Assembly: GCF_006345805.1 (NCBI RefSeq) | Contig: NW_021829526.1 | Span: 1 to 6,040, forward strand | Direction of reading: 5' to 3' | Origin: Octopus sinensis | Lineage: Eukaryota | DNA: 6,040 bases | In this document: positions 2 to 5,577 of the stretch, one piece after another | How the letters are laid out: each line of letters starts with the position of its first letter | Numbering within the stretch: position 1 is the first letter of the stretch | Translations under genes and position numbers: made by a program | Notes under the pieces: model-generated | Databases searched by the model: none | What the model was told of the DNA's origin: nothing | Seen by the model: only the letters and a program-made list of their open reading frames with translations

Positions 2-463
2 AAACCATTTCTCATCCTCAGTCACTATTTGGCCCCAAAACGGTTCATTCGTGACATGTGACAACAAAGAAGAGCTCACATTCACTCTCTGCGAGCGATT
101 AGACTCGGGAAGTTTGAGGAATCCATTGACCCAATTTGCTGACTTTTCGAAGGCATGCAGGTATCGATGAATGGTTGAATGACCAAATCCAAGCTTCTCT
201 GCTAGTTCTTCAACAGTTACGATGGGATTTTGTTCCACCAGGGTTTGCAGGACATCCTCGTCAAACTCTACAGATCTTCCAGTACGAAGCTCGTCTTCTA
301 GGTTGTAGTTTCTGGCTCGGAATTTTTGGAACCACCGTTGATACTGGCTTATGTTTATTGTTCGATCCCCATATACTGCATTAATATTCCTCGCGCTTTC
401 CGTTGCGTTTTTGCCTTTATTGAACTCATAAAGCAAAACTTGCCGAATATGCTCTTTTGTCAC
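2..463 (-). pseudogene. Mariner transposase N-terminal half (two HTH regions, linker, first catalytic Asp); no ATG, internal compensating frameshifts
   Basis: Manual translation, 154 stop-free codons: VTKEHIRQVLLYEFNKGKNATESARNINAVYGDRTINISQYQRWFQKFRARNYNLEDELRTGRSVEFDEDVLQTLVEQNPIVTVEELAEKLGFGHSTIHRYLHAFEKSANWVNGFLKLPESNRSQRVNVSSSLLSHVTNEPFWGQIVTEDEKWF. RWFQKF..LEDE.R.GR and IVTEDEKW match mariner motifs (consensus IVTGDEKW). The WVPHEL-type linker appears only in a shifted frame (KVSKLGQWIP, ~118-148). No in-frame ATG lies between 463 and the upstream stop at 515-517. Confidence 0.88.
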
Positions 464-611
464 TATAATGATTATAGCTTTGATAAAATAACTTTTAAAA
501 TCGAACTGCACTCTTCAAGGACAAGCTAAAATTACTGCCTGCTGTTATAGCAAGTTGATGCAGGTAGATTATCCTGTCTGCCTCCGACTTTTAGTTCATG
601 CAATTGAAAAA

Positions 612-840: not shown

Positions 841-915
<75 letters not shown>

Positions 916-925
916 AGTATATATA
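841..925. repeat. Compound microsatellite (AC)20 followed by (AT)n
   Basis: Perfect AC repeat at 841-880, interrupted AT repeat at 881-925. Confidence 0.97.
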
Positions 926-1441
926 AATCAGAGAAAAACCACTATTATGTACTTCAAACAATGATAGACATAAACCAAATCATAAAAAAAAACATATTAC
1001 AAAACATATAACTAGATCACAAAAAGTACAAAAAAATGAATAAACAATATATAATAAGTAAGAAGACTACGTATATTTCATGGTTATGACTTCAATTCGA
1101 ATTACAATTAAATTTAAATTTAATCGAAAAAACAATTCAATTTAAAAGTATAGTCACTCCTCAGGTCAACAATAATAACAACAATAGTTAAATAAATAAT
1201 CAAATAGAATTAAACAATATTTCTTAAAGAAATAAAATCATAATTGTTCTTATAGAAGAAACTCCATTAACTAAATTTGAAACTTAAAAAGTAGGACCAG
1301 GTGTCTATAATACATTTATCATGTTAAAAATCTAAGGTAAAAAAAATATAGAGTAAATAGATAGAAAAATGTATTTATCTGTGAAGATATAATTTAGCTT
1401 TGAGAATAACATTAACAAACTATAGAATATATTTCCACTTG

Positions 1442-3105: not shown

Positions 3106-3425
3106 AAACTGAGAACAAGTTTTCTTTCAAAACATGTTTTTAAAAAAACACGACTATGTTCTTGTTTGATCTCCTCCGTTAAAGAAGTTTCATATTTTTT
3201 CATGAGTCTTTATATTTAGTTTGGAACAATAGCGTTCATAAATACATTATGATGAATCGAGACTTACACAATATTATTTTTTTGAAATAAGCTATTGATA
3301 ATGACGTGTTGTCCGCGCGTTCTGTGTTAAGTTGCAAAGGGGCTTGGGAATAATTTTATAAGTGATAAAAACATCAATACCGGACTTATAACCGTATAAT
3401 ATTAAGGCTTACTATATATATATAT

Positions 3426-3736
3426 ATCACCGTGATCACCGTGACCGACCAGGCTATCAGATGTTGCTACACGTCGCTGGTCACAATGCGCTTTTTTCAT
3501 TGTTTTAGCCTTCAAATGACGCCACCCCGCAGGCTAAGCGAGCAGGCCAACAGAAGAAAGAGTGAGAGAAAGTTGTGGCGAAAGAGTACAACAAGGATCG
3601 CCACCCCCCCTGCCGGAGCCTCGTGGAGCTTTAGGTGTTTTCGCTCAAGAAACACTCACAACGCCCGGTCTGGGAATCGAAACCGGCATTCCCACGACCG
3701 CGAGTCCGCTGCCCTAACCACTAGGCCATTGCGCCT

Positions 3737-3738
<2 letters not shown>
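3426..3738 (-). mobile_element. Full-length tRNA-derived SINE (possibly tRNA-Arg-like head) inserted in a (TA)n tract
   Basis: Minus strand begins GGAGGCGCAATGGCCTAGTGGTTAGGGCAGCGGACTCGCGGTCGTGGGAATGCCGGTTTCGATTCCC, with a Pol III A box (TGGCCTAGTGG, 3718-3728) and a B-box-like GGTTTCGATTCC (3673-3684). A ~240-bp body follows and ends in a tandem tail (CACGGTGAT)x2 at 3426-3443. TA repeats flank both sides. Confidence 0.88.

Positions 3739-3794
<56 letters not shown>
3739..3794. repeat. (AT)28 microsatellite
   Basis: Perfect repeat seen directly. Confidence 0.97.
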
Positions 3795-3796
<2 letters not shown>

Positions 3797-4010
3797 AATG
3801 TGACCGCGCGTGTGTACCGTTGGCGATGTTTTTCCTCCGTCTTCCCTTCTTTGGATCTTTCCTTTTCCTATGTTTCTGACGAAGAGCCCCGCTCGAAACG
3901 TTAACCCTCCTTCTTTCCTTCCTTCCTGAGCGTCCAATAATACTATATTTGCTCCACGCCTCGCGTTGTTGTGTTTTCTCTTTGTGTTTTTTTCATGTTT
4001 ATATAAACTT
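3795..4010 (+). mobile_element. Short (~215 bp) pyrimidine-rich element carrying a hammerhead-like motif (Penelope pLTR / retrozyme-like)
   Basis: Discrete block bounded by TA repeats on both sides, containing the hammerhead core at 3876-3902. The family assignment is an inference. Confidence 0.6.
3872..3905 (+). ncRNA. Minimal type I hammerhead ribozyme-like motif
   Basis: GTTT-CTGACGA-A-GAGC-CCC-GCTC-GAAA-CG-TT-AAC: exact CUGANGA and GAAA boxes around a 4-bp stem II (GAGC/GCTC). The stem III region is palindromic (AACGTT) and stem I is short and imperfect (GTT/AAC). Confidence 0.65.
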
Positions 4011-4030
4011 TATATATATAGTATATATAT

Positions 4031-4061
<31 letters not shown>
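4011..4061. repeat. Interrupted (TA)n microsatellite
   Basis: Seen directly. Confidence 0.95.
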
Positions 4062-4535: not shown

Positions 4536-4657
4536 TTGTGTACGATATTATATTGTGTTGCAATGACTCTTTATTGTGAAAGCATAGTAGCCAACGAGTA
4601 AATATCATACATGTGTATTGTATATAACAGTTGTAGTCATGAAGTTTACCACTCACA

Positions 4658-4850
4658 TGGCAGAATCGTCGGGCAAAATGCTTAGCAGTATTTCGTCTGC
4701 CGCTACGTTCAGCGATCAAATTCCGCCGAGGTCGACTTTGCTTGTCATTCTTTCGGGGTCGATAAATTAAGTACCAATTGAGTACTGAGGTCGATGTAAT
4801 CGATTTATTCCCTCCCCCAAAATGGCTGCCCTTGTGGCAAAATTTGAAAT
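4658..4850 (+). mobile_element. tRNA-derived SINE, family 2, copy 1 (5'-truncated) with (CAT)n tail
   Basis: Direct repeat of 4944-5136. B box mutated (GATCAAATTCC, 4714-4724). Followed by a trinucleotide tail. Confidence 0.85.
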
Positions 4851-4858
4851 CATCATCA

Positions 4859-4894
<36 letters not shown>

Positions 4895-4931: not shown

Positions 4932-5136
4932 AAGGTGGCGAGCTAGCAGAATCGTCGGGCAAAATGCTTAGCAGTATTTCGTCTGCCGCTACGTTCTGCG
5001 TTCAAATTCCGCCGAGGTTGACTTTACCTTTCATTCTTTCGGGGGTCGATAAATTAAGTACCCTTCAAACACTAGGATCGATGTAATCGATTTATCCCTC
5101 CTCCAAAATGGCTGCCCCTGTGGCAAAATTTGAAAT
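4932..5136 (+). mobile_element. tRNA-derived SINE, family 2, copy 2 (near full length)
   Basis: Starts AAGGTGGCGAGCTAGCAGAATCG (A-box-like TAGCAGAATCG), has B box GTTCAAATTCC at 5000-5010, and ends ...GTGGCAAAATTTGAAAT before an (ATT)n tail. Resembles, from memory, a very abundant octopus SINE. Confidence 0.87.
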
Positions 5137-5577
5137 CATCAGCATCTTCATTATTATTATATATTATTATTATTATTATTATGTTATCCTTATGATTATT
5201 ATTGTTAGATTATTTATTATATCATTATTATTATTATTATAATTATTATTATTATTTTTATTATTGTTATCATTATTATTATATTCATTATTATATTATA
5301 TTTTATTATTATTATGATATATTTTTAATATTATTATATTATATTATTATTATATCATTATTAATTATTATTATTATTATAATATTTATTATTATTATTA
5401 TTATTGTTATTATCATTATATTATATGATCATATATTATTATTATCATTATCATTATTATATATTATTATTATTGTTATTATCATCATTATTATTATTGT
5501 TATCATTATTATTATTATTATTATTATTGTTATATTATTAGTATTATTATTATTATCATTATTATTTATTATTATTA

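What the first reader, a model, noticed from the sequence alone, without database searches (positions are those of the whole stretch)
3795..4010. Short TA-flanked element with an intact-core minimal hammerhead ribozyme motif
Seen: CTGACGA-A-[GAGC-CCC-GCTC]-GAAA-CGTT-AAC at 3876-3905, inside a ~215-bp non-coding block with no tRNA head, delimited by TA tracts. Known: Penelope-like retroelements and non-autonomous retrozymes carry minimal type I hammerheads whose palindromic stem III typically works as a dimer. Inference: this is a non-autonomous, ribozyme-bearing mobile RNA family (solo pLTR or retrozyme-like). It has an extra A after CUGANGA, an ultra-short ACGT stem III that could only pair between two copies, and a non-GUC cleavage site. 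Stem I is weak in this copy.
Basis: partly seen in the sequence, partly recalled or inferred. Interest (0 to 1): 0.75.

Follow-up and report, generated by a model that had tools for sequence, protein, structure and literature searches.

The report
Penelope retrotransposon end with minimal hammerhead
This is one of thousands of short, cut-off tail ends of a Penelope-type jumping gene scattered through TA repeats of an animal genome; it carries a hammerhead-shaped RNA motif of a kind already described for these elements, predicted to cut only as a pair and likely inert in this lone copy.

Summary
The motif is real and at the stated place. The block is not a stand-alone ribozyme family: it is the 3' end (pseudo-LTR) of an RT/GIY-YIG Penelope-like element with a Neptune/Nematis-type zinc-finger linker. 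The genome holds at least 5,316 copies; 11 of 15 loci picked by protein alone carry the block behind the ORF, 4 at both ends, and a 93%-identical block closes an ORF-bearing copy. The extra A, short stem I and loopless palindromic stem III are the published hallmarks of these minimal hammerheads (PMC4209133). This copy lost a stem I base. Beyond the known picture: most copies read CCGA, not CUGA, in the core (heritable; CUGA is likely a reversion) and a sister family has A6U; the motif is far better kept than its flanks between lineages; 62 of 90 copies start 99-115 bases upstream of the predicted cut, at a conserved AUG-stop motif, and none at the cut. Cleavage is untested. The scan noted the same kind of element before, in this and another genome. 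New member of a known kind; interest 0.3.

The parts
3739..3794 (.). (TA)n target tract, 5' side
   Evidence: 62 of 90 sampled copies have a dinucleotide repeat at the 5' junction
3794..4010 (+). 5'-truncated 3' end (solo pseudo-LTR) of a Penelope-like retrotransposon, U4 subfamily
   Evidence: 93% identical over 146 bases to the end of ORF-bearing copy L277
3794..3803 (+). Conserved TCA..ATG motif followed by a stop within 1-4 codons; coincides with the pile-up of 5' ends (function not shown)
   Evidence: present in 18 of 18 aligned pLTRs incl. sister family; 62 of 90 5' ends at -115..-99
3872..3875 (+). Hammerhead stem I, 5' strand (GTTT)
3876..3883 (+). Core C3-U4-G5-A6-N7-G8-A9 plus extra A between positions 9 and 10.1
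   Evidence: extra base typical per PMC4209133
3884..3894 (+). Stem II GAGC/GCTC with 3-base loop (loop base 3888 differs from family)
   Evidence: invariant pairs in 14 of 14 rows
3895..3902 (+). GAAA core, self-complementary ACGT (stem III only between two molecules, predicted), U17; predicted cut after 3902 (GUU)
   Evidence: GUA and GUC in other copies
3903..3905 (+). Stem I 3' strand, one A short of the family's AAAC
   Evidence: stems I+II -0.3 against -4.6 kcal/mol in two sister copies
3923..3932 (+). Conserved TTCCTGAGCG motif downstream of the hammerhead, role unknown
   Evidence: nearly invariant in all lineages and the sister family
4001..4061 (+). Fixed 3' end of the family (decayed here) running into the (TA)n tract
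   Evidence: 70 of 90 copies end in TA-like sequence, 6 other, 14 end not found

Best explanation
The block is the 3' end (pseudo-LTR) of an endonuclease-bearing Penelope-like retrotransposon, left as thousands of scattered 5'-cut copies in TA microsatellites, and its minimal type I hammerhead is predicted to cut only as a dimer and is likely inert in this copy. Shown: full-length elements read pLTR - 5' leader - one ORF (RT, CX4CXXC linker, GIY-YIG) - long CA-rich 3' UTR - pLTR - (TA)n; copies share one 3' end that falls on a short TATA run inside the element; most stop about 210 bases in. Inferred: the element's endonuclease nicks (TA)n, the nick pairs with the TATA run of the RNA and primes reverse transcription, and synthesis usually ends near the conserved start motif, from an RNA that is uncut or re-ligated at the hammerhead. 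The hammerhead is likely under selection only in active master elements, where two pLTR copies in one transcript (possibly with protein help) would pair through ACGU; after insertion it decays like its flanks.
For: ORF link: L104 has RT+EN remains 2.7 kb upstream of the block. Of 15 same-family loci chosen by protein similarity only, 11 have the block on the ORF strand 2.4-3.3 kb behind the ORF, 4 of them also in front (L113, L114, L120, L121), 1 only in front, 3 not found. For the window's own subfamily, 3 of 20 longer copies reach the ORF; L277 is 93% identical to the window block. Protein: 28% identity over 739 aa, E 3e-74, to a Pfam RVT_1 + GIY-YIG protein of the same genome, with the linker and core cysteines aligned. 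3' junction: 5' pLTRs continue through a TATA run into the leader in three lineages. Between lineages the motif is 91-97% identical against 47-89% for flanks, 81% against 48-50% for the sister family; one stem I pair covaries (G-C to C-G) and the cut-site base varies only among U, C, A. After insertion: 2.5% (20 of 794) change at catalytic bases against 3.4% (287 of 8,362) in non-diagnostic flank columns. Literature: PMC4209133 (features; monomer inactive, dimer weak), PMC11167929 (protein-assisted cleavage, not needed for insertion in vitro), PMC8557442 (linker, TA bias).
Against: No cleavage data. Pfam support for L113 itself is weak (RVT_1 E 0.002, no GIY-YIG hit). Stem II never varies and the stem I covariation is one event, so structure support is thin. 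The predicted ACGU duplex is only -1.7 kcal/mol and the monomer prefers a hairpin that pairs the core with the palindrome. The sharp 5' pile-up is not what random truncation gives and leaves room for self-copying solos. No Neptune/Nematis reference sequences were at hand for a clade tree.
Confidence: 0.85

Rival explanations
1. The ~210-base solos are a self-propagating non-autonomous (SINE-like) family: transcribed from an internal start at the conserved motif and copied in trans by the Penelope-like RT.
For: 62 of 90 5' ends fall in a 17-base zone; TA junctions at -110 number 266 against 11-28 at three other internal TA sites; only 6 of 90 copies are longer; Penelope has an internal promoter (abstract of PMC2377424); cis-acting pLTRs can mobilise in trans (passage of PMC3846280).
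Against: All four subfamilies in the sample contain long copies (1-2 each) and 5'-end class is independent of subfamily (permutation p 0.52), so no solo-only lineage was found. That test cannot exclude solos re-starting at an internal promoter.
Confidence: 0.2
2. Non-LTR retrozyme: tandem units self-cleaved to monomers and circles.
For: Type I hammerhead, unit of about 210 bases, within the 150-450 range given in PMC7229834; retrozymes may derive from pLTRs (abstract of 10.64898/2026.07.22.740005).
Against: 8 of 90 3-kb loci hold a second copy and none is a head-to-tail unit repeat (two pairs are the same locus seen twice); unit ends are not at the cut site; the hammerhead is the minimal, not the canonical form.
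Confidence: 0.03
3. The motif no longer acts as a ribozyme in this lineage and is kept as a structural or protein-binding signal (for example the extended GACG/CGUY hairpin).
For: 81 of the first 100 exact matches and 52 of 79 scored unbiased copies carry C4; the sister family is fixed for U6; U4C lowers activity considerably in vitro (passage of PMC3088659); no copy starts at the cut (0 of 90; 11 TA junctions against 28 and 25 at control sites); the monomer minimum-energy fold is the hairpin; cleavage was dispensable in vitro in PMC11167929.
Against: Stem I covaries, C3-G8, G5, A9, GAAA and the palindrome are kept, the cut-site base was never G in 64-92 alignments of lineages, and the hairpin is broken in the sister family while stem I is longer there. 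The same paper says U4C keeps enough activity for viroid infectivity. Re-ligated circles would also leave no ends at the cut.
Confidence: 0.25
4. Chance match to a short consensus.
For: 15 of 200 shuffles give one core match; no Rfam hammerhead hit.
Against: Thousands of copies, fixed place in pLTRs, conservation above flanks between lineages.
Confidence: 0.01

Closest known systems
Minimal type I hammerheads in pLTRs of metazoan Penelope-like elements (Cervera and de la Pena 2014, PMC4209133; read: parts 1-2 of 4 of the text)
   Same: Extra base between 9 and 10.1, G10.1-C11.1, 4-bp helix I, no helix III/loop 3 with palindromic 15.2-16.2, mostly single dispersed motifs from truncated elements, few in full elements
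   Different: Helix II is 4 bp rather than the 7-8 bp of the schistosome motifs; dominant core has C4 and the sister family U6, variants not mentioned in the parts read (U3-A8 is)
Neptune/Nematis clades of EN+ Penelope-like elements (Craig et al. 2021, PMC8557442; passages)
   Same: RT then C-terminal GIY-YIG, CX2-5CXXC linker, hammerhead near the 3' end, partial-tandem pLTRs, (TA)n bias
   Different: 1-3 kb CA-rich 3' UTR; which of the two clades was not tested
Poseidon element PAc of the green anole (Frangieh et al. 2024, PMC11167929; read: parts 1-2 of 4)
   Same: pLTR hammerhead, internal start of reverse transcription just past the pLTR, AT-rich target, no genomic or RNA footprint of cleavage
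   Different: There the start site is not homologous to the target; here the 3' end falls on a TATA run that matches the target, and the hammerhead does not overlap the ORF start
Animal non-LTR retrozymes (PMC7229834, passages; 10.64898/2026.07.22.740005, part 1 of 5)
   Same: Type I hammerhead in a short non-coding mobile unit, related to pLTRs
   Different: Not tandem, minimal rather than canonical hammerhead, unit ends not at the cut, continuous with an ORF in long copies

Membership tests
EN+ Penelope-like element (pLTR of) | Single ORF with RT followed by GIY-YIG endonuclease | tested here: met
   1008-aa open frames in L113, L114; E 3e-74 over 739 aa to an RVT_1+GIY-YIG protein; Pfam hits on L113 itself weak
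EN+ Penelope-like element (pLTR of) | Direct pseudo-LTRs made by a truncated upstream copy | tested here: met
   93-99% identical repeats of 259-554 bases at both ends of L113, L114, L120, L121
EN+ Penelope-like element (pLTR of) | Hammerhead motif inside the pLTR, sense strand | tested here: met
EN+ Penelope-like element (pLTR of) | Window block continuous with such an ORF in its own subfamily | tested here: met
   L277 (93%), L295 (91%), L284
Neptune/Nematis clades | CX2-5CXXC linker before GIY-YIG and two cysteines in the core | tested here: met
   CSRSRCNTC and CIKCNLC in the L113 frame
Neptune/Nematis clades | RT phylogeny with reference elements | not tested
   no reference sequences fetched; the tree holds only this genome's copies
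Minimal type I hammerhead (min-HHR) | Core, extra base after A9, helix II, short helix I, palindromic 15.1-16.1, H at 17 | tested here: met
   helix I damaged in the window copy
Minimal type I hammerhead (min-HHR) | Self-cleavage as a dimer | not testable with these tools
   needs in vitro assay; indirect genomic footprint absent
Rfam hammerhead families | Match to a covariance model | tested here: not met
   no hammerhead among 76 matches at E<=10
Non-LTR retrozyme | Head-to-tail tandem units each with a hammerhead | tested here: not met
   none in 90 3-kb loci
Non-LTR retrozyme | Abundant circular monomer RNA | tested here: inconclusive
   only assembled contigs of runs not on record as RNA; no circular joint listed
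tRNA-derived SINE | tRNA-like head | tested here: not met
   the 5' part is retrotransposon 3' UTR

The most novel reading that the evidence does not exclude
The solos are the Penelope counterpart of strong-stop DNA: reverse transcription primed at the TATA run behind the first pLTR runs off a defined RNA start at the conserved TCA..ATG-stop motif, and the hammerhead in between is a slow or retired ribozyme whose core has switched U4 to C4 and back (and A6 to U in the sister family) in successful master elements. The family would then be a natural allelic series for asking what Penelope hammerheads are for.
Probability: 0.3. Interest if true: 0.55.

Novelty: new member of a known kind. Interest (0 to 1): 0.3.

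Why it matters
As an identification it is ordinary: a solo pLTR with a known type of minimal hammerhead. Its use is as test material. The role of Penelope hammerheads is stated to be unclear (PMC8557442), and here three core states (U4A6, C4A6, U4U6) sit in closely related, highly amplified lineages with intact-looking ORFs, and thousands of copies record where reverse transcription starts and stops.

Tried and rejected
Rfam scan: no hammerhead hit. Generic GIY-YIG search found other Penelope-like families; only 1 of 42 loci held the block, by co-insertion. CpG decay as the source of CUGA in each copy: rejected, 27 of 79 against about 4% at other CpGs and tight linkage to diagnostic columns, p 3e-15. 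Single-founder origin of the 5' pile-up: not supported. Upstream hairpin as an RT stop: folds not better than shuffles, z -0.6 to +0.2, 4 of 4. Downstream GAGCG as an anti-hammerhead switch: pairing probability 0.00-0.26 in 7 sequences, not convincing. Intron ending in the hammerhead: no joint listed in four runs, not pursued. Expression: no RNA holder listed; runs are contigs only and cannot show ends. Whole-block fold z -1.86, not used. Protein atlas gave no answer. Lunse et al. 2017 is not held; only its title was seen. Rows dropped: 1 duplicate place of the first 91 listed; 9 of 90 copies too short for the core analysis; L124 skipped in the tree; alignment A2 had two mis-cut rows and was redone as A3.

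Full report
Observation. The motif is at 3876-3905 as written, between TA tracts. Alone it is barely above chance (1 match, 0.09 expected, 15 of 200 shuffles) and no Rfam hammerhead model matches (0 of 76 matches at E<=10). The host is a 2.72-Gb genome; the repeats look to me like those of an octopus, which is recalled and untested.

Family. The 216 bases match many dispersed places: 1,334 candidates, the 39 best other copies 90-94% identical. Exact counts are 4,603 for a 35-letter hammerhead pattern and 5,316 for a 35-letter pattern from the 3' part, 0 for both reversed controls; these are lower bounds. In the family stem I is GTTT/AAAC; the window copy lacks one A and has 13 other differences from the majority. 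Predicted energy of stems I+II is -0.3 kcal/mol here and -4.6 in two sister copies.

Parent element. Among 30 copies taken by the hammerhead pattern, some ran further upstream into CA-rich sequence, and one led to RT and GIY-YIG remains 2.7 kb upstream (L104). Searching the genome with those protein pieces gave 20 loci chosen without regard to the block. Of the 15 that belong to the same family, 11 have the block on the ORF strand 2.4-3.3 kb behind the ORF, 4 of these also in front of it as 93-99% identical direct repeats, 1 has it only in front and 3 not at all in the stretch fetched. The other 5 are a sister family, each with a related hammerhead 0.3-0.9 kb behind the ORF. L113 and L114 have 1008-aa open frames; L113 aligns over 739 aa (28%, E 3e-74) with a protein that passes Pfam RVT_1 and GIY-YIG, and has the CX4CXXC linker, which PMC8557442 gives for Neptune and Nematis (passages). 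For the window's own subfamily, 3 of 20 longer copies reach the ORF; the end of L277 is 93% and of L295 91% identical to the window block, both with CUGA. The block is therefore the pLTR of this element.

Ends. 70 of 90 unbiased copies end at the same 3' point in TA-like sequence (6 other, 14 not found). In upstream pLTRs of three lineages the sequence goes on through a short TATA run into the leader, so I infer priming by pairing between the nicked (TA)n target and that run. The 5' ends are not random: 62 of 90 lie 99-115 bases upstream of the predicted cut, 6 further up, 0 within 5 bases of the cut. Genome-wide TA junctions number 266 at -110, 28 at -35, 11 at the cut and 25 at a site further down; exact-match rates of the first three patterns are alike (10 of 30, 34 of 85, 29 of 87). 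So templates were not cut linear RNA; uncut RNA and re-ligated circles (the model of PMC4209133) both fit. The pile-up sits on a TCA..ATG motif followed by a stop within four codons, present in 18 of 18 aligned pLTRs including the sister family. It recurs in all four subfamilies, each of which also has long copies, with no association between end class and subfamily (p 0.52). A transcription start there is my favoured reading of it, but the five upstream pLTRs seen (other subfamilies) all begin further up, which counts against a single fixed start. A hairpin stop was not supported. No head-to-tail arrays were seen in 90 loci.

The ribozyme motif. Extra base after A9, 4-5 bp helix I, no helix III and palindromic 15.2-16.2 are described as the usual form in PMC4209133 (parts 1-2 of 4 read), where the monomer did not cleave and dimers cleaved weakly; PMC11167929 (parts 1-2 of 4) found protein-assisted cleavage that was not needed for insertion in vitro. 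Between lineages here the motif is 91-97% identical against 47-89% for flanks, and 81% against 48-50% in the sister family. Stem II is invariant; one stem I pair changes on both sides (one event) and another is U-U in one lineage; the cut triplet is GUU, GUA or GUC. After insertion, catalytic bases change about as fast as flanks (2.5% against 3.4%). The ACGU duplex is predicted at -1.7 kcal/mol and the monomer prefers a hairpin that hides the core.

Core variants. 81 of the first 100 exact matches (hand count, my note's 80 was off by one) and 52 of 79 scored unbiased copies read CCGA. CUGA is a subfamily trait (p 3e-15 with a neighbouring diagnostic column; CpG decay would give about 4%). Two ORF clades are all C4, the window's clade is mixed, and its nearest pLTR subfamilies are C4, so U4 is likely a reversion at a CpG; the three clades are unresolved in the tree and the sister family has U4, so this is not proven. 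The sister family is CUGUUGA (A6U). Both U4 and C4 forms are in contigs labelled as three organisms. PMC3088659 (passages) notes that U4C lowers activity in vitro yet supports viroid infectivity. Searches for a report on this family or these variants gave nothing that describes them, but Lunse et al. 2017, on small hammerhead variants of Penelope-like elements, is not held and no supplements were read, so I claim no novelty for the variants. Penelope-like families are annotated in an octopus repeat survey without mention of ribozymes (PMC13282606, passages).

Earlier notes of this scan, looked up after the reading was formed (one search gave nothing), describe solo Penelope ends with variant cores in this and another genome; they agree but are not independent support.

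Verdict. Real, explained, a new member of a known kind. Identity confidence 0.85; cleavage untested; interest 0.3.

Noticed in passing
window 2-514 (-): Open fragment of a mariner-type transposase (Pfam HTH_48, E 8e-21), running off the window's start.
   Followed up: partly
window 905-1070: Another TA-flanked repeat (5-13 hits per bin among held loci); by eye like the arm of a fold-back element in L039 that carries a different hammerhead-like motif.
   Followed up: no
window 3420-3738: Two abundant repeats abut the left TA tract (17-35 hits per bin); 3540-3738 looks like a tRNA-derived SINE on the minus strand (recalled; ARAGORN finds no tRNA). The same neighbour order is seen in L039.
   Followed up: no
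window 4650-4860 and 4935-5145: Two copies, 286 bases apart and 79-94% alike, of a very abundant SINE-like repeat.
   Followed up: no
window about 1620-1780 and 2050-2190: Imperfect inverted arms around the (TAA)n tract, seen by eye.
   Followed up: no
L062, L035 and related loci: A second large Penelope-like family (781-aa frames) has a U3-A8 core and a 6-base palindrome in its hammerhead (13 hits).
   Followed up: partly
L095:944-1099 and L289:980-1520: L095 joins an N-terminal piece of the element's ORF directly to a solo block at the -110 point; L289 stacks three pLTR pieces, one starting at the predicted cut.
   Followed up: partly
window 3923-3932: A 10-base motif behind the hammerhead is as well kept as the core in all lineages and the sister family; role unexplained.
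   Followed up: partly
L233 and L114:1400-1790 (turned): pLTRs of this family and of the A6U sister family are fused or stacked at the same TA sites.
   Followed up: no
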